Shown in pieces: positions 1-12,686 of a DNA stretch of 64,000 nt. The DNA is from the human T2T-CHM13v2.0 reference genome, Homo sapiens. Both the position numbers and the translations under genes were made by a program. The number at the start of each line of letters is the position of its first letter. The first letter of the stretch is position 1. The notes under the pieces were generated by a model. The model did not search any database and was not told where the DNA came from. It saw nothing but the letters and a program-made list of their open reading frames with translations. Location: the NCBI RefSeq assembly GCF_009914755.1, contig NC_060936.1; one strand, given 5' to 3'.

Positions 1-256
1 TATAAAAACATACAATGCCACCAAATGGTAAGAATAAGTAAGGAGAAGATACTGGTCCTCCCTATATTAATTTTATAAGTTATATAACCACTAAGAAATC
101 ACAATAAGCTTATTCTTAGAACAAAATAAAATGCCTAAAATGTATCAATAGAATAAACAGAAAAAATCCAAAAACATTCTAAAATAAGAAAGAGTATATG
201 TGTATATGGGGGAGGGATACAGAAAGAAGTCTTTCCAGATATTAAAATATACTACA

Positions 257-507
257 GGTCAGGCGCAGTGGCTCAAGCCTGTAATCCTAGCACTTTGGGA
301 AGCCAATATGGTGAAACCCTGTCTCTACAAAAAATACAAAAAAATTAGCCGGGCATGGTGGTGTGTGCCTGTAATCCCAGCTACTTGGGGCTAAGGCAGG
401 AGGATCACTTGAGCCCAGGAGGTTGAGGCTGTGGTGAGCTGAGATCCCACCACTGTACTCCAGTCTGGGTGACAGAGTGAGGCCCTGTCTCATAAACCAG
501 AAAAAAA
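257..507 (+). mobile_element. Alu with internal left-arm deletion
   Basis: Alu consensus jumps from cactttggga to gccaatatggtg. Confidence 0.9.
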
Positions 508-1535
508 TATATACTATAAAAAGAATATAATCTAGAGCATGCCTCCTTGGTGGTGGGGAAACAAATTATAGCTCAACGAAGAATGAGAAACTCCAGATAC
601 AGACCCTAATACTAAATAAAACAAATGATTTTAAAAAATCATCTATAAGGTGAAGAAAAATAAGAAATATTTTCATTAGTATTGTGTCACATAAATATAT
701 CGTTGATTTCAACAAGTGAAAATGTTAATTTATCATTTAGAAAACTGATAAGATTTCCTTAACTGATTAAGAAGAATCCTTTTATAATGAAAATATAATC
801 AACCAATAGGAGAGATACCTTAATCATCATCTCAACAGCACCAAAAAAGCAACAATACTTTCATTTCAAAACATGTTCAATTTTTTTTTGCAGAAACCTA
901 TTTTAGTTTACAGTACGTACTGAAATAACAGTCACGATCAACTTATGTCCTCAAGGTTATACCACAACACTTACAAAGAAAAGAAAATGAATTCTTCATC
1001 CTTTTACACGGAGAAATAAATGTGCTTCAGAGATCAGTAGGTACAGTGAACCACAAAGGAAAGGACACCCACTTTTATAATATAATGCAAGAAAAAAAAG
1101 CTGTTTATTTATACCTCTTAAAATTTGAAACAGAGAAAATAAAATGCTAATTATCCAGATGAATCTCAAAAATATCATTAAAATCGTATTTTCTAAAAAG
1201 AAGACATTGCTAATGTATCATTCTGTATTTCCAGAATTTTTGAAAATTCACTTCTCCTTAATGGATAACCTAAAATAACGTTTCGCAAAAAATTAAAATA
1301 AAATGTTTCACAGAATGCGAACAACTATATTACATATCTACATTGGGATAAAAATTAAAAAAGAGGAAATATTCACAGACTGCAATTTATGAATGCAAAG
1401 AAGTAACTTTCTTACAAGTGTCACGTGTCTTCATGAAAATTTTTAAATGGGCATTTACTCCACTTGATATGTATGTGTATTAACATATACCAACACACAT
1501 ATTCACAAGTATATTTGTATTTTTTAAATGATTAC

Positions 1536-1669
1536 CTCCATTGAGATCCGTCTATGTATACGATTTCTGAGACAAACACCTGTAGGTGACTGGACTTCAT
1601 CAGATGATGTCCCAGAAGCTTGGTCACTCTCACCATCTGATCCCATTTTTAGATTTTCATGAACAATAT
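1536..1669 (-). CDS. CDK17: CDK17 exon 4, (D)[44 protein letters not shown]
   Basis: Acceptor ttttgatatag|AT, donor GAG|gtaatc; 134 nt, cumulative CDS 417 nt = 139 codons; PCTAIRE-family [10 protein letters not shown] motif. Confidence 0.97.
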
Positions 1670-2420
1670 CTATATCAAAAAATGAGACATTAAAAGAGAT
1701 ACATTATATTCTAATATATAATTTATTATCACTATGGGTAAAATATAGAAGGCCAACGAGTAAAAATCACAGCATAAAAAGTCATTTACATTCTGGGTGC
1801 CACAGGTATGCAGTTAATAGATGAAAACATGACTCAAATGTCTTAAAATAGTATGAAATCTTTTTACACTTTCAAATTATGAAAAAAATTAACATTCAAG
1901 TTATTATCAAGGGTTGAGTAATAAAATTATAAACTGGAAATAATATCTCTGAGAATGAGCCAGTTCTTTCATTTTCTAGATCTGGGAACTGAGACTTGAA
2001 AGGTTAAATGACTTTCAAAAGTTCACAAAGCTTAGATGCAGAGCTGGAATAGACACCTGGTCATCTGCCTCTTATTTAGTATTCTTTCAATTAAATAATG
2101 TGTCACTGGGTCTATGGTTAAATGGAGCTAATTCTTGGAATATTCTTTAAAACACCTCTTAAAAGCTTCTAATGCAGTTTCTCCTCCCTGCACCCCCAAT
2201 GTTAAAAATAAAACAATAAAAAATTATTCACTGAATATCTATTTTGTACCAGAACTACAAAAACAAGTTTATGATCTTCAAATACTCAAAAATCTGTTCA
2301 GAGCAAAAACATACTACAAAAAAGGTGGGTTATGGCATGCTTAATAGAGATAAAAGTTAAATGGAAGTAGGGGGAGGAAGATAAATTCCATTTGAAAATA
2401 TTAAAAACAGACATATACTG

Positions 2421-2830
2421 TTTTGTTTTTGAGACAAGGTCTTGCTCTGTTGGCCAAGCTGGAGTGCAGTGACACAACCATGGCTCACTGCAGCCTCTAC
2501 TTCCCAGGCTCAAGCAATCCTCCTGCCTCCCAAGTAGCTGGGAGTACAGGCACCCATCACATCTGGTGTTTTGTTTTGTTTTATTTTATTTTATTTTTTT
2601 TGTAGAGACAAGGTTTTGCCTTGTTGTTCAGGCTCATCTTGAACTTGTAGCCATTTATGCCTAGTGTTCCATTATTGGAAGCTAAGCATGTGGGAGCTAC
2701 TTATATCCTACTGCTCAAGGTCATCACCAAGGTCTGATTGCAAAAATTCAAAAAACTGCAACTTCAGGAATCCACCCACCTTGGCCTCTCAAAGTGATGG
2801 GATTACAGGCATGAGCCACCACATCTGGCC
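2421..2830 (-). mobile_element. AluJ-like, split by MER85
   Basis: Antisense Alu sequence on both sides of 2651-2768. Confidence 0.88.
2651..2768 (+). mobile_element. MER85 (piggyBac/PGBD3-derived MITE) nested in an Alu, 3' TIR incomplete
   Basis: CCATTTATGCCTAGTGTTCCATTATTGGAA...CAAGGTCTGATTGCAAAAATTCAAAAAA matches recalled MER85 consensus. Confidence 0.85.
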
Positions 2831-4156
2831 AAGTTGTATACTCATATACCTGCATTTGTCAGTCATTATCTAATAACCCAGCAAGAAGAGTGTACTAGGA
2901 AACAAATGCTGGATCTCTAGAACTCCTCTCTTGCCACTATTACTTTCTATACACGTATTCATTTTCCAGAAAGAAGCATGTTGTTTCATGCTGCAGTGCT
3001 TTAACACACTTTTTTTCTCGTTTTTAAAAGATGCCTTTTCCTATTTTATCAACTTTGTGAGATCAGGCTTAGTCTTCAAACTATGCTCATGTGTCATCAC
3101 TCAGTGAAGTCTTTTCTAATCTCAGACACAGTTGACTACTGTGCCCCCACCCACTGCACTGAAGAACATTTTTTGGTGCATGTGATTTTATAAGATCCTT
3201 GGGGATGGGATTTAGCTTGTTCACTTTTCTATTTCCAGAACTTAACCAACTGTCTGGCACTCAGAAGGTGCTTAACAAGTATTCAAGGGAACTGCATATT
3301 AACTAACAATCAAGGAATGGCCTAGATAACTAGATCTCTTTTTCAAATAAAGTTATATAAAATATCAATGTGTGAGACAATTGTATTTTATAAGTATAAA
3401 TGTTAACTTTTAATAATATTTACATATAAAATCATGAGGACTGCTTAGATTAAGGAGAAATTTGAACTCAAGGGTCTTATATCAACTCTATCTTAAAACT
3501 CACTTTATGTCTGTATTTTTGTCTTGGTTAACTCAATATTAAGAAAACTCCAATTAATATTCATAAGCAGTTGCAAATGGTAATGGATTTTTAATAGCTC
3601 AATATGTAATCTAAGAATACACTTCAGTTATGTTGAGATTTCCATAGAAATTTTATGGTGATATGTGAACAAAAAATTAATTTGGCAGCAAAAGTAATGT
3701 ATTGGTGATTGATTCCTAACCTCTTAAAATTTGGTATATAACACATCTAAGGTCCTGTATTCATTTCTGTCACACCTTCAAAATGTTAAAAATAATTTAA
3801 TCATGGCTTCCATTTCTAGTGAGATATGAAAATCTCCCTTTCCTCAAGAAAATGTTGACTAAAATACAATATTTTAAAATGCACAGCTAAATGTGCAAGA
3901 ATGTATTGGTAATACCTAGGAAGCAAAAACAAAGAGAGGACTGAAAACCCAAAGCTGTTATACATAAATTGACTCTATCAGTGTCTTAGGAGAGGCTGCT
4001 GATGTTGATGAGAAGGTCCCTGGGTTTACCTTCCACATTGGGATAAAAAATGAAGCCCTGGGTTTCTGAGTTACAAGTGAGACCTTCCCACAGAAAGGCT
4101 CAACTCCCAAAGTGCTACACTTTTGAGACTTACAGGGTACATTTAAAAAAAAAATC

Positions 4157-5064
4157 AGAGGGAGGAGCCAAGATGGCCGAATAGGAACAGCTCCGGTCTA
4201 CAGCTCCCAGCGTGAGCGACGCAGAAGACGGGTGATTTCTGCATTTCCATCTGAGGTACCGGGTTCATCTCATTAGGGAGTGCCAGACAGTGGGCGCAGG
4301 CCAGTGTGTGTGCGCACCGTGCACTAGCCGAAGCAGGGCGAGGCATTGCCTCACCTGGGAAGCGCAAGGGGTCAGGGAGTTCTCTTTCCGAGTCAAAGAA
4401 AGGGGTGACGGACGCACCTGGAAAATCGGGTCACTCCCACCCGAATATTGCGCTTGTCAGACCGGCTTAAAAAACGGCGCACCACGAGACTATATCCCAC
4501 ACCTGGCTCGGAGGGTCCTACGCCCACGGAGTCTTGCTGATTGCTAGCACAGCAGTCTGAGATCAAACCGCAAGGCGGCAGCGAGGCTGGGGGAGGGGCG
4601 CCCGCCATTGCCCAGGCTTGCTTAGGTAAACAAAGCAGCCGGGAAGCTCAAACTGGGTGGAGCCCACCACAGCTCAAGGAGGCCTGCCTGCCTTTGTAGG
4701 CTCCACCTCTGGGGGCAGGGCACAGACAAACAAAAAGACAGCAGGAACCTCTGCAGACTTAAATGTCCCTGTCTGACAGCTTTGAAGAGAGCAGTGGTTC
4801 TCCCAGCACGCAGCTGGAGATCTGAGAACGGGCAGACTGCCTCCTCAAGTGGGTCCCTGACCCCCTGACCCCCGAGCAGCCTAACTGTGAGGCACCCCCC
4901 AGCAGGGGCACACTGACACCTCACACGGCAGGGTATTCCAACAGACCTGCAGCTGAGGGTCCTGTCTGTTAGAAGGAAAACTAACAAACAGAAAGGACAT
5001 CCACACCGAAAACCCATCTGTACATCACCATCATCAAAGACCAAAAGTAGATAAAACCACAAAG
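4157..5064. promoter_or_regulatory. L1 5'UTR: CpG-rich bidirectional promoter (sense promoter with YY1 site; antisense promoter pointing in CDK17 sense direction)
   Basis: YY1 motif CAAGATGGCCG at 4169-4179; only clearly CpG-dense segment seen in the window; antisense promoter is established for young L1PA 5'UTRs. Confidence 0.8.
4393..4608 (-). CDS. ORF0: L1 ORF0 (71 aa antisense ORF), intact
   Basis: ORF track MAGAPPPASLPPCGLISDCC...RHPFL; Kozak GCAATGG; donors CCAG|GTGTGG (4503/4502) and CCAG|GTGCGT (4418/4417) present. Confidence 0.9.
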   Translation of the reverse strand: MAGAPPPASLPPCGLISDCCASNQQDSVGVGPSEPGVGYSLVVRRFLSRSDKRNIRVGVTRFSRCVRHPFL

Positions 5065-6072
5065 ATGGGGAAAAAACAGAACAGAAAAACTGGAAACTCT
5101 AAAACGCAGAGTGCCTCTCCTCCTCCAAAGGAACACAGTTCCTCACCAGCAACGGAACAAAGCTGGATGGAGAATGACTTTGACGAGCTGAGAGAAGAAG
5201 GCTTCAGACGATCAAATTACTCTGAGCTACGGGAGGACATTCAAACCAAAGGCAAAGAAGTTGAAAACTTTGAAAAAAATTTAGAAGAATGTATAACTAG
5301 AATAACCAATACAGAGAAGTGCTTAAAGGAGCTGATGGAGCTGAAAACCAAGGCTCGAGAACTACATGAAGAATGCAGAAGCCTCAGGAGCCGATGCGAT
5401 CAACTGGAAGAAAGGGTATCAGCGATCGAAGATGAAATGAAGTGAGAAGGGAAGTTTAGAGAAAAAAGAATAAAAAGAAATGAGCAAAGCCTCCAAGAAA
5501 TATGGGACTATGTGAAAAGACCAAATCTACGTCTGATTGGTGTACCTGAAAGTGATGCGGAGAATGGAACCAAGTTGGAAAACACTCTGCAGGATATTAT
5601 CCAGGAGAACTTCCCCAATCTAGCAAGGCAGGCCAACGTTCAGATTCAGGAAATACAGAGAATGCCACAAAGATACTCCTCGAGAAGAGCAACTCCAAGA
5701 CACATAATTGTCAGATTCACCAAAGTTGAAATGAAGGAAAAAATGTTAAGGGCAGCCAGAGAGAAAGGTCGGGTTACCCTCAAAGGGAAGCCCATCAGAC
5801 TAACAGTGGATCTCTCGGCAGAAACCCTACAAGCCAGAAGAGAGTGGGGGCCAATATTCAACATTCTTAAAGAAAAGAATTTTCAACCCAGAATTTCACA
5901 TCCAGCCAAACTAAGCTTCATAAGTGAAGGAGAAATAAAATACTTTACAGACAAGCAAATGCTGAGAGATTTTGTCACCACCAGGCCTGCCCTAAAAGAG
6001 CTCCTGAAGGAAGTGCTAAACATGGAAAGGAACAACTGGTACCAGCCGCTGCAAAATCATGCCAAAATGTAA
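5065..6072 (+). pseudogene. L1 ORF1p, disrupted by a 9-nt in-frame deletion and CGA>TGA stop at 5443-5445
   Basis: ORFs 5065..5445 and 5512..6072 in the same frame; span 1008 nt vs 1017 consensus. Confidence 0.93.
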
Positions 6073-6135
6073 AGACCATCGAGACTAGGAAGAAACTGCA
6101 TCAACTAATGAGCAAAATCACCACCTAACATCATA

Positions 6136-9969
<3,834 letters not shown>

Positions 9970-10559
9970 ACAATGAGATCACATGGACACATGAAGGGGA
10001 ATATCACACTCTGGGGACTGTGGTGGGGTGGGGGGAGGGGGGAGGGATAGCATTGGGAGATATACCTAAGGCTAGATGACGAGTTAGTGGGTGCAGCGCA
10101 CCAGCATGGCACATGTATACATATGTAACTAACCTGCACAATGTGCACATGTACCCTAAAACTTAAAGTATAATAAAAAAAAAAAATTCACACTTAAAAA
10201 AAAATCTGTCCTGTTGCACAAGGAATTGGACGACAAAGAAAGCTTACTAATCTCAGACTATGAATAAATACTTGAGTACCATCTGACCCAAACAAGAAAT
10301 TACTCACGTCATTAACAAACAAGTGTAGTTCTGACATGACTACCAGTCGGTATTTTCATTTCCATCAAGACAAACGTGAAACAATGATGGCTTGTCAGAA
10401 CTTTACTCATCTGTCAAGGGGGGAAGAGGGATATCTCTCTGCTGATCAGGTAATGTAACAGCGGCAGATACAACATACTTTTCTCCTCCAGCACAATACC
10501 CTTTAAATTTAATCTGCGTTACTAACATTTTCAATACACTGTCTTAGTTCTAGAACAAG

Positions 10560-10738
10560 GGTCTAGAACAAGTGTGGCTTCTTTTTATATGGCCCATGAG
10601 CTAAAAATGTTTTTTGTATTTTTAAAGGATTATTAAACAGAGAAGAATATGCAATGGAGACTGTATGCCCATAAAACCTAAAATATTTATTACTAACTGC
10701 CCCCTTACAAAAAAAAACAAAACAAACCCTGGTCTAGA
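10560..10738. mobile_element. MER58-like hAT-Charlie fragment
   Basis: ggcccatgagctaaaaatg...aaacctaaaatattta...ccctggtctaga. Confidence 0.6.
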
Positions 10739-10756
10739 CAAACAAGAAAACAATAA

Positions 10757-11123
10757 GCCAGGGCCTGATCTGTAGTGTTTTCTGACTTCTCTCTCCATGG
10801 ACAACTTCAGGCTACCAACATGACAACACTGAACATATGGTTGGGAAGAAATGTGCAGTAGCATACCATTATATAGTGTTTTTGACTATAACTAGAACAG
10901 AAAAAAATAACGCCGGTGGCATAGATAATAGTTAAAAGTGGTAAAAAATTAGGAAGCAATGACTTTTGCATATTCATTACCTTTGTTTTTAATTTAGTTT
11001 ACCTATTTGTAAACTTATATAATTTAAAATTTAATAGCTATGTTTAACAACCAGTTTGCAAAGTTCCTGAAACTTTAACAATCATCTCTTATGAACTAGT
11101 GTGAGCCAACTCCAGCATACCAT
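10757..11123 (-). mobile_element. MER63-like hAT-Blackjack element
   Basis: tgtttaacaaccagtttgcaaagttcctgaaa...gagccaactccagcatacca resembles reverse of MER63 5' end. Confidence 0.7.
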
Positions 11124-11355
11124 TCTGTAGAGACACACCTACAGAGATAAAGGCTATATGCAGTTCTCACAGAAAAAATCTCACTGTAGATAAGCTCATA
11201 CTCCCAAAATTAAAGAAACACATTTGGAAATAATATACTATTCCAAGAGTAAGCACATAAAACGAGCAGTAGAATAAAACCCCTAGGAGCTTCAGTAAAT
11301 ATAATTATCTAAGAAGACTATAAAATAGTTGTACTTGAAGTGATTTTAAAAATCA

Positions 11356-11700
<345 letters not shown>

Positions 11701-12162
11701 ACATAAGGCATCATCAAAAAAGGCCAGAGGAATAAACAGAAACTTGCAATTCTTTTTTCTTGGATATTTAAAGACATAATGACAGAAGAAGAAACAATTC
11801 AGGTGATAACCACATATACTATTCATTACAATAGGCTTTATATGGTGATGATCTGAAAAGTTACTGAGGCATTACCCTAAAATAAACACCATCCCAAACT
11901 GCCATTCATCTTGAAATACTGCATCCATTTATTATGGGTTTCATTTCCCTCCTGATGGACAGGTTTTTCAAATATTACTTCCCTGTATTGTCAGCACTAC
12001 TACCTCTCTAGAACTTTCCATCCTTCTGCTATTCCTCTTGATCTCAACTTGATTTTTATCTGACAGAAGAAACGAGATAATAAAAGTTGCTTAATTAAAA
12101 CTTAACTATGTGCATGACGTATAATCAGAAAGGTAAACACAACAGACAAGTAATCAAATTAC

Positions 12163-12327
12163 CTAATCTGCTTCCATTTCTGGGCATTGCCATGAAGGAG
12201 CCAAGGCTCCCTCCAATAACACTGTGTGGTCTCCGCAATGGGGGCTTCTTGAAAGATCCTGTGTACTGGTGGAGGAAGGAATGCATACTGTGAGACGTTG
12301 GAGGCCTGCCATTCTTCACAATAGGCT
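12163..12327 (-). CDS. CDK17: CDK17 exon 3, (E)PIVKNGRPPTSHSMHSFLHQYTGSFKKPPLRRPHSVIGGSLGSFMAMPRNGSRL(D)
   Basis: ORF track 12125..12319; acceptor ccacag|AG, donor TTAG|gtaatt; 165 nt, phase 1-1, in frame with exons 2 and 4. Confidence 0.97.
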
Positions 12328-12686
12328 CTGTGGTTCATAGAATTCGAAAATCATTCCATCATCAGTCCAAGATCCAGGATCACATGAGAAGGATTCAGAA
12401 AGCAAAACAAAAAGTTGTAACAGAGATTAGTACATTTAGCCTCATTGCTTTGCTTAACTATACACAGTATTAAAATTAAAATAGTTTCTCTGAAAAAATA
12501 CTTAAGAAAATACTTGAATATTTTAAGTTGGTCTAATAACCATCTATTTCTTATATAATCAAAAGTGGCTAAGAACCACAAAACTACTAATATACCCAAC
12601 CAAATTTTCATCCATTTGTTTATTTTAGTGTATCTCAAGATTGTTTCCATACCACTCCTCCATTTATTGACTACCTGTGTGCCTTA

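What the first reader, a model, noticed from the sequence alone, without database searches (positions are those of the whole stretch)
1536..4608. L1 antisense promoter and intact ORF0 are in phase with CDK17 exon 4: predicted ORF0-CDK17 kinase fusion
Seen: the L1PA2-like element is antisense to CDK17, so its antisense promoter fires toward exon 4, which lies ~2.5 kb beyond the L1 5' end. ORF0 is intact (ATG 4608, GCAATGG). Its first donor GAGCCAG|GTGTGG (last exonic base 4503, ORF0 nt 106) is phase 1, and exon 4 begins in phase 1 (|AT ATT). The junction reads GAG CCA G|AT ATT GTT and recreates CDK17 Asp95, giving [50 protein letters not shown]... Established: young L1PA antisense promoters make chimeric transcripts and ORF0 donors can fuse to neighbouring exons. 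Inference: an ape-lineage CDK17 isoform with aa 1-94 (including the basic KKFKRRLS segment) replaced by 35 L1 residues, with the downstream kinase exons in frame, expressed when this L1 is demethylated. ORF0 is intact although ORF1 and ORF2 are broken, but a 216-nt ORF can survive by chance.
Basis: partly seen in the sequence, partly recalled or inferred. Interest (0 to 1): 0.9.

Follow-up and report, generated by a model that had tools for sequence, protein, structure and literature searches.

The report
Possible L1 ORF0–CDK17 fusion, unproven
A young L1 retrotransposon lying backwards in an intron of the kinase gene CDK17 could, on paper, supply a new start that splices in frame onto the next CDK17 exon, but this is an expected by-product of how such elements are built and nothing available here shows that the transcript is made.

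Summary
The sequence observation holds. A full-length L1 of about 6.03 kb (window ~4158-10186, + strand) lies antisense in CDK17 intron 3. On the minus strand it carries an intact 71-aa ORF0 (4608..4393). The donor CAG|GT, with last exonic base 4503, falls at ORF0 nt 106, which is phase 1. CDK17 exon 4 (1669..1536) also starts in phase 1. A 4503-to-1669 junction would restore Asp95 and stay open through exon 4.

None of this is specific to the locus. 30 of 30 young L1 copies fetched from the same genome have a 71-aa ORF0, and 27 of 27 checked have the same three donors. Matching phase has a 1-in-3 chance. The in-frame donor is the weakest of the three by a U1-pairing proxy, and the other two donors hit a stop three codons into exon 4.

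ORF0 fusion to host exons is an established kind (Denli 2015, seen only as cited). CDK17 is absent from the supplements of three L1-antisense catalogues. No main text links it to an L1 chimera. No RNA data could be queried.

Verdict: a valid but ordinary and untested prediction.

The parts
4158..10186 (+). Full-length L1 (about 6.03 kb), antisense to CDK17, in intron 3. It is flanked by a ~17-nt near-perfect direct repeat at 4139-4156 and 10190-10206. ORF1 and ORF2 are broken.
   Evidence: The 5' end and poly(A) were read and the ORF pieces. The ORF2 C-terminal piece 8401-9969 is 509 of 522 residues identical to human L1 ORF2p chains in the PDB. Private divergence is 1.13%, and the copy groups with the older copies.
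4609..4760 (-). Stretch upstream of ORF0 on the antisense strand, roughly L1 nt 452-603. From recalled literature, this is where the L1 antisense promoter and its start sites are placed. It contains no ATG.
   Evidence: Searches found no ATG on the minus strand from 4900 to 4609. The copy has two private substitutions here, at 4745 and 4694. Promoter activity was not testable.
4393..4608 (-). L1 ORF0: 71 codons plus stop, with its ATG in the context G at -3 and G at +4.
   Evidence: It differs from the common state of 29 other copies at three residues (14, 25, 51).
4495..4505 (-). Donor 1, CAG|GTGTGG. The last exonic base is 4503, at ORF0 nt 106, phase 1. This is the only donor in frame with exon 4.
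   Evidence: The U1 duplex proxy is -7.1 kcal/mol, the weakest of the three L1 donors.
4410..4420 (-). Donor 2, CAG|GTGCGT. The last exonic base is 4418, at ORF0 nt 191, phase 2. Joined to exon 4, it reaches a stop after three exon-4 codons.
   Evidence: -7.8 kcal/mol.
4347..4357 (-). Donor 3, CAG|GTGAGG. The last exonic base is 4355, beyond the ORF0 stop. If it is used, ORF0 is a complete upstream ORF.
   Evidence: -11.6 kcal/mol, the strongest of the three.
1536..1669 (-). CDK17 exon 4 (NM_002595.5). It has the acceptor ...TTTTTTGATATAG|AT and starts in phase 1. It holds Met103 in the context A at -3 and G at +4.
   Evidence: Hub annotation.
1670..4502 (-). Would-be intron of the chimera, 2,833 nt. 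On the minus strand it holds 7 AATAAA/ATTAAA hexamers and 6 acceptor-like sites whose pyrimidine tracts are at least as rich as exon 4's.

Best explanation
This is an old, fixed-looking L1PA2-type insertion in CDK17 intron 3. Its antisense strand carries the standard family equipment: the region assigned to the antisense promoter, ORF0 in a strong start context, and three CAG|GT donors.

The first donor is phase 1 and so is the next CDK17 exon. A transcript starting in the L1 5'UTR and spliced 4503-to-1669 would therefore encode 35 ORF0 residues followed by CDK17 from Asp95 to the native stop.

I think this is a latent, coincidental possibility of a known kind and not a selected isoform. The L1 5'UTR keeps its CpGs and is probably methylated and silent in most tissues. 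Where it is de-repressed, antisense transcripts would split between three donors and several possible acceptors. The in-frame product would be at most a minor species.

Shown here: the sequence anatomy, the frames, the family-wide conservation of the parts, and absence from three catalogues.

Inferred: promoter activity, methylation control, donor choice, and low abundance.
For: - Anatomy and frames.
- Family-wide features, not locus-specific ones: 30 of 30 fetched L1 copies have a 71-aa ORF0. 27 of 27 checked have identical donor 9-mers for donors 1 and 2, and the same 8 bases read at donor 3. This copy has 20 CpGs in the 411-nt stretch, against 18-22 in the 26 other copies tabulated.
- Chance: a phase match is 1 in 3 by arithmetic.
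- Competing donors: 4418 and 4355 pair with U1 at -7.8 and -11.6 kcal/mol, against -7.1 for 4503. Both give a stop three codons into exon 4.
- Competing acceptors: 6 acceptor-like sites and 7 poly(A) hexamers lie before exon 4.
- Literature on rarity: observed ORF0-exon fusions are few, 57 of about 3,200 ORF0 loci, as quoted in a passage of Criscione 2016.
- Catalogues: CDK17 and PCTK2 are absent from Criscione 2016 (988 EST-supported transcripts, 10 files, none cut), Xu 2023 (8 files) and Jonsson 2019 (DNMT1-knockout neural progenitors, 5 files).
- Full-text searches: 0 papers for CDK17+ORF0, 0 for PCTK2+retrotransposon, and 0 for CDK17+transposable element+alternative promoter. The only human TE paper returned mentions CDK17 for an unrelated polymorphic Alu last exon (passages). 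One search also returned a sheep pituitary transcriptome paper, listing only.
Against: - All three L1 donors score at least as well as CDK17's own donors of exons 2-4 on the U1 proxy (-5.3 to -6.7 kcal/mol). Donor 4503 is therefore credible.
- Exon 4 is a constitutive exon only 2.8 kb away and is the first annotated exon downstream.
- The in-frame product would end at the native stop and so escape nonsense-mediated decay. The out-of-frame products would not, which could enrich the in-frame product at steady state (inference).
- RefSeq marks 3789-5052, spanning the L1 5'UTR start, as 'enhancer' features (hub annotation). This hints that the copy is not always silent.
- Absence from EST-era and gene-list catalogues is weak evidence. 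The list of 57 fusions in Denli 2015 and several newer locus-level catalogues could not be opened.
- The U1 proxy and the acceptor scan are crude heuristics of my own, not trained splice-site models.
Confidence: 0.6

Rival explanations
1. The L1 antisense promoter at this locus makes a real ORF0-CDK17 mRNA through donor 4503. It is translated into a CDK17 whose first 94 residues are replaced by 35 L1-derived residues. This would be a lineage-restricted kinase isoform with altered N-terminal regulation, expressed where the L1 is unmethylated.
For: - The frame is exact and open through exon 4.
- The ORF0 ATG is the first ATG for any start site between 4900 and 4609, and it sits in a strong context.
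- The donor is no weaker than CDK17's own donors on the U1 proxy.
- The fusion keeps the native stop, so it should be stable (inference).
- ORF0-exon fusions exist elsewhere (passages).
- RefSeq 'enhancer' features overlie the L1 5'UTR (hub annotation).
Against: - No transcript, CAGE or peptide evidence could be obtained.
- CDK17 is absent from three catalogues and from all main texts searched.
- The phase match is 1 in 3, and all parts are generic to the family.
- Two other donors that pair better with U1 give out-of-frame products.
- Nothing shows selection on the arrangement.
Confidence: 0.12
2. Antisense transcripts from this L1 do reach exon 4, but mainly through donors 4418 or 4355. ORF0, whole or with a 3-codon tail, then acts as an upstream ORF. 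The RNA is either degraded by nonsense-mediated decay or re-initiates at Met103 in exon 4, giving an N-terminally truncated CDK17 with no L1 residues.
For: - Donor 4355 has the best U1 pairing (-11.6 kcal/mol), and 4418 is better than 4503.
- Both are closer to the acceptor.
- Both frames stop after three exon-4 codons.
- Met103 has A at -3 and G at +4.
Against: Donor usage is not measured. The U1 proxy ignores context and enhancers. Re-initiation after a 66-71-codon ORF is usually inefficient (general knowledge, recalled).
Confidence: 0.15
3. The L1 5'UTR at this locus matters, if at all, as a cis-regulatory element (enhancer or chromatin boundary) for CDK17 or its neighbours. It makes no spliced chimera.
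For: RefSeq functional-element rows call 3789-4421 and 4422-5052 'enhancer' (hub annotation). The copy keeps 20 CpGs in 411 nt, like other young copies.
Against: I could not see the experiment behind those RefSeq rows. Enhancer calls on young L1 5'UTRs can reflect multi-mapping or the bidirectional promoter itself (inference).
Confidence: 0.1

Closest known systems
L1 ORF0 and ORF0-exon fusion proteins (Denli et al. 2015, Cell 163:583). The paper is not held; I saw it only as summarised in passages of PMC4908685 and PMC4859970.
   Same: A 70-71-aa ORF on the antisense strand of a primate L1 5'UTR, downstream of the antisense promoter. It has two internal splice donors that can join it to downstream host exons. 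This copy has the ORF and both internal donors, and one donor is in frame with the next host exon.
   Different: The published cases rest on observed RNA, ribosome or peptide data. Here there is only sequence compatibility. Whether CDK17 is among the 57 reported fusions could not be checked.
L1 antisense-promoter chimeric transcripts (Speek 2001; Criscione 2016, PMC4908685, passages and supplements seen). One example is L1-MET (PMC12032326, abstract start seen in the listing).
   Same: An intronic full-length young L1, antisense to the host gene, that could start a transcript running into downstream host exons and encoding an N-terminally altered or truncated host protein.
   Different: No EST-supported transcript for CDK17 or PCTK2 appears among the 988 of Criscione 2016. 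For L1-MET the transcript is documented.
'Gene-breaking' by antisense intronic L1 (Wheelan 2005). I saw it only as mentioned in a figure legend of PMC4859970.
   Same: The same topology: an L1 antisense in an intron, whose antisense promoter can drive the 3' part of the gene as a separate unit.
   Different: The other half of gene-breaking, upstream transcripts ending at poly(A) sites on the L1 antisense strand, was not examined here. No transcripts are known for either half.

Membership tests
L1 ORF0 locus | An ORF of about 70 aa on the antisense strand of a primate L1 5'UTR, at about L1 nt 450 down to 236 | tested here: met
   71 aa at 4608..4393 on the minus strand, which is L1 nt ~451 to ~236 counting from a 5' end at ~4158. 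It is 96-97% identical to the ORF0 of 29 other copies. The L1 coordinates of published ORF0 are recalled, not from a call.
L1 ORF0 locus | A start codon in a strong initiation context | tested here: met
   G at -3 and G at +4. No upstream ATG within 290 nt.
L1 ORF0 locus | Two splice donors inside the ORF | tested here: met
   CAG|GT at ORF0 nt 106 and nt 191, identical in 27 of 27 copies checked. Their use at this locus was not testable.
ORF0-host exon fusion (expressed) | The donor phase equals the phase of the downstream host coding exon | tested here: met
   Donor 4503 is phase 1 and exon 4 starts in phase 1. The join is open through exon 4. Donors 4418 and 4355 do not match.
ORF0-host exon fusion (expressed) | An observed RNA junction from the L1 donor to the host exon | not testable with these tools
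   No RNA-seq, EST or CAGE resource was available. The indirect evidence is negative: CDK17 and PCTK2 are absent from the supplements of three catalogues.
ORF0-host exon fusion (expressed) | Translation of the fusion, by Ribo-seq or a peptide | not testable with these tools
   No such data were reachable.
L1 antisense-promoter chimeric transcript | A transcription start inside the L1 5'UTR on the antisense strand | not testable with these tools
   Only the sequence is present. It is 98% identical over 411 nt to other young copies, with two private substitutions at 4745 and 4694.
L1PA2 subfamily | A full-length element of about 6.03 kb with the short 5'UTR of about 900 nt shared by L1HS, L1PA2 and young L1PA3 (recalled) | tested here: met
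   5'UTR 4158-5064, about 907 nt; element about 6,029 nt.
L1PA2 subfamily | Diagnostic substitutions and an age between L1HS and L1PA3 | tested here: inconclusive
   23 private differences in 2,032 near-unanimous columns (1.13%; 0.59% outside CpG). In 11 of 23 split columns the copy carries the minority state; 13 older copies each share 7-10 of these 11, and the near-identical youngest copies at most 1. ORF2p piece 97.5% identical to L1HS ORF2p. No Dfam or RepeatMasker call was possible, so young L1PA3 is not excluded.

The most novel reading that the evidence does not exclude
The 4503-to-1669 junction is really used in pluripotent, germline or neural cells of humans and of the other apes that carry this insertion. 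It would yield a translated PCTAIRE-family kinase in which an L1-derived 35-residue head replaces the native basic N-terminus. That would be a lineage-restricted, methylation-gated CDK17 isoform with its own localisation or regulation.
Probability: 0.08. Interest if true: 0.6.

Novelty: new member of a known kind. Interest (0 to 1): 0.25.

Why it matters
If the fusion were made and translated, it would be a concrete case of a retrotransposon-encoded peptide remodelling a conserved brain- and testis-expressed kinase in apes only. It would be testable with one junction search and one peptide.

As it stands, its main value is as a calibration. Every young full-length L1 antisense in an intron carries the same ORF0 and donors, so about a third of them will look 'in frame' with the next coding exon through the first donor. 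Such predictions need RNA evidence before they are interesting.

Tried and rejected
1. The search for homologous proteins with ORF0, lengths 'longer'. It gave 2,241 hits. The 120 listed are 131-289 aa, carry no Pfam domain and mostly cover nearly the whole of ORF0. They look like unspliced read-through ORFs from primate DNA. The database does not hold spliced eukaryotic isoforms, so this says nothing about a fusion.
2. Rfam scan of window 1-12500 at gathering thresholds: 0 matches, so no structured RNA explains the region.
3. Denli 2015 by PubMed id: not held.
4. The search of earlier findings and paper reading from then on answered that they were closed. As a result the supplements of Garza 2023 (PMC10619931), Pinson 2022 (PMC9396940), Lanciano 2024 (PMC10879037), Honda 2020 (PMC7746726) and PMC12791003 were not examined, and any of them might list this locus.
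5. A search with the term 'L1' failed because the term is too short. I replaced it with PCTK2+retrotransposon, which found 0 papers.
6. I considered whether ORF0 intactness beside broken ORF1 and ORF2 signals selection, and rejected it: 30 of 30 copies are intact.
7. I considered that the 'recreated Asp95' is meaningful, and rejected it. It only requires that both upstream exons end in G.
8. I ran no structure or complex prediction. The fusion is not a sequence of the window as such, and a fold would not bear on whether it is expressed.
Full report
**What is there**

On the + strand, a full-length L1 runs from about 4158 to the end of its poly(A) at 10186. Its first bases include the ...GGAGGAGCCAAGATGGCCG... 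start. It is flanked by a near-perfect ~17-nt direct repeat at 4139-4156 and 10190-10206, with one mismatch and one extra A (read). These are the marks of a single target-primed insertion.

ORF1 starts at 5065, so the 5'UTR is about 907 nt. ORF1 is in two pieces and ORF2 in at least three. The ORF2 C-terminal piece (8401-9969) matches human L1 ORF2p chains in the PDB over all 522 residues, with 13 differences.

CDK17 runs on the minus strand. The L1 is therefore antisense to it and lies in intron 3, between exon 3 (12327..12163) and exon 4 (1669..1536).

**Check of the observation**

- The minus strand has an ATG at 4608, with G at -3 and G at +4. It opens a 71-codon frame that ends at 4393.
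- No other ATG occurs on that strand between 4900 and 4609.
- The donor CAG|GTGTGG has its last exonic base at 4503, which is ORF0 nt 106 and phase 1.
- The CDK17 coding parts before exon 4 add to 283 nt, so exon 4 begins in phase 1.
- Exon 3 ends in G and base 4503 is G, so the junction codon is again GAT (Asp95).
- The join, computed by coordinates, is open through the whole of exon 4. From there the frame is the native one.
- Residues 1-94, which would be lost, include KKFKRRLS at residues 2-9.
- The L1 5' end is 2,488 nt from exon 4, and the would-be intron is 2,833 nt.

**Is it more than chance, and is it special to this locus?**

No on both counts. A phase match has probability one third.

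I searched the window's own assembly with the 411-nt ORF0/antisense-promoter stretch. It gave 3,280 first-look candidates, of which 40 were scored and 30 loci fetched, including this one. All the others are about 98% identical.

- All 30 carry a 71-aa ORF0. One search found 27. The other 3 had a changed base just after the ATG and were confirmed.
- The 27 checked for donors carry the same three CAG|GT donors.
- This copy has 20 CpGs in the stretch, against 18-22 in the others.
- It has six private substitutions (4745, 4694, 4569, 4535, 4456, 4383). None touches the ATG or a donor.

ORF0 being intact beside broken ORF1 and ORF2 is therefore what a short ORF in a ~1% diverged copy should look like.

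**Age and subfamily**

I compared the first ~2.1 kb of the element across the 30 loci.

- This copy has 23 differences at 2,032 columns where at least 27 of 30 copies agree. That is 1.13% overall and 0.59% outside CpG. It is among the most diverged of the set, which includes copies with 0-0.05%.
- In 11 of 23 columns that split the set, it carries the minority state. Thirteen older copies each share 7-10 of these 11 states with it. The near-identical youngest copies share at most 1.

This fits a pre-L1HS element with the short 5'UTR, i.e. 'L1PA2-like'. A young L1PA3 is not excluded, because no repeat library was available. The 'ape-lineage' dating is plausible but could not be tested, since no other primate genome was reachable.

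Three good donors follow the ORF0 start, not one.

| Donor (last exonic base) | Position relative to ORF0 | U1-pairing proxy (kcal/mol) | Frame into exon 4 |
|---|---|---|---|
| 4503 | nt 106, phase 1 | -7.1 | in frame |
| 4418 | nt 191, phase 2 | -7.8 | stop after three exon-4 codons |
| 4355 | after the ORF0 stop | -11.6 | stop after three exon-4 codons |

CDK17's own donors of exons 2-4 score -5.3 to -6.7 on the same proxy. All three L1 donors are thus credible, but the in-frame one is the weakest and lies farthest from the acceptor.

With donors 4418 or 4355, ORF0 behaves as an upstream ORF. CDK17 could then be made only by re-initiation, for example at Met103, which has A at -3 and G at +4.

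Between the L1 donors and exon 4, the minus strand also holds 7 poly(A) hexamers. It holds 6 acceptor-like sites with pyrimidine tracts at least as rich as exon 4's. Examples have first exonic bases at 3915 and 2869, the latter followed by a strong donor in an Alu arm.

These are crude heuristics of mine, not trained splice models. They show only that 4503-to-1669 is one route among several.

**What is known**

[quoted passage not shown] I saw this in passages of PMC4859970. Passages of PMC4908685 state that 57 of about 3,200 ORF0 loci were seen fused to a gene exon. The primary paper (Denli 2015) is not held, so I could not check whether CDK17 is among the 57.

CDK17 and its old name PCTK2 do not occur in these supplements:

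- Criscione 2016: 988 EST-supported L1 antisense transcripts, 10 files, none cut.
- Xu 2023: 8 files.
- Jonsson 2019: DNMT1-knockout neural progenitors, 5 files.

Full-text searches gave the following:

- CDK17+ORF0: 0 papers.
- CDK17+antisense promoter+LINE-1: 3 records, all versions of one paper. It mentions CDK17 only for a polymorphic Alu last exon (passages).
- CDK17+L1PA: the same paper.
- PCTK2+retrotransposon: 0 papers.
- CDK17+transposable element+alternative promoter: 0 papers.
- CDK17+chimeric transcript: the same paper plus an unrelated sheep study.

After the paper reader was closed. Newer locus-level catalogues listed (PMC10619931, PMC9396940, PMC10879037, PMC7746726, PMC12791003) were not examined.

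**Mechanism I commit to**

This is an ordinary young L1 in an intron, whose generic antisense equipment happens to be in phase with the next exon. In most tissues the CpG-rich 5'UTR is probably methylated and silent (inference). Where it is de-repressed, antisense transcripts may reach exon 4 through a mix of donors. The in-frame ORF0-CDK17 message would be a minor, unselected by-product.

I put about 0.6 on this. The rivals are:

- About 0.15 on chimeras that mainly use the out-of-frame donors.
- About 0.1 on a purely cis-regulatory role. The RefSeq 'enhancer' rows at 3789-5052 in the hub's table hint at this, but I could not see the underlying evidence.

- Exon 4 is the first annotated exon downstream and is close.
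- Only the in-frame product would escape nonsense-mediated decay.
- Negative catalogue look-ups are weak evidence.

**Novelty and verdict**

The kind is known. The CDK17 instance is not in any text or supplement I could search, so if real it would be a new member of a known kind. Without RNA evidence it is a correct piece of frame arithmetic, with about a one-in-three prior of arising at any such locus. Interest is low to moderate. One junction query in public RNA-seq would settle it.

Noticed in passing
window 2440-2870, minus strand: An Alu in the same orientation as CDK17. Its left arm appears interrupted by roughly 115-130 nt of non-Alu sequence (about 2670-2790). NCBI's mask covers only 2386-2759. 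The left arm carries a strong donor-like site, AAG|GTGGGT (last exonic base 2780, U1 proxy -11.0 kcal/mol), preceded by an acceptor-like site (first exonic base 2869).
   Followed up: partly
window 3721-3915, minus strand: The best pyrimidine tract in the interval (18 of 20 Y, then TAG) sits upstream of first exonic base 3915. It is followed 195 nt later by the donor-like site GAG|GTTAGG (last exonic base 3721). This is a possible cryptic exon for antisense L1 or CDK17 transcripts. It lies inside the RefSeq 'enhancer' row 3789-4421.
   Followed up: no
window 4622-5017, minus strand: A 131-aa ATG-initiated ORF on the L1 antisense strand ends 14 nt upstream of the ORF0 ATG. It would be upstream of ORF0 only for transcripts starting beyond L1 nt ~860. 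It is probably a chance ORF in GC-rich sequence.
   Followed up: no
L012, L018, L022, L023, L025 (own-genome loci): Among the 30 nearest L1 copies, five show 0-1 private differences in ~2,040 columns of the first 2.1 kb. These are very recent L1HS-type insertions in this assembly.
   Followed up: no
window 8346-8353: NCBI's repeat mask breaks for a few bases inside the L1, close to the ORF2 frame break between the pieces ending at 8255 and starting at 8401. This suggests a small indel there.
   Followed up: no
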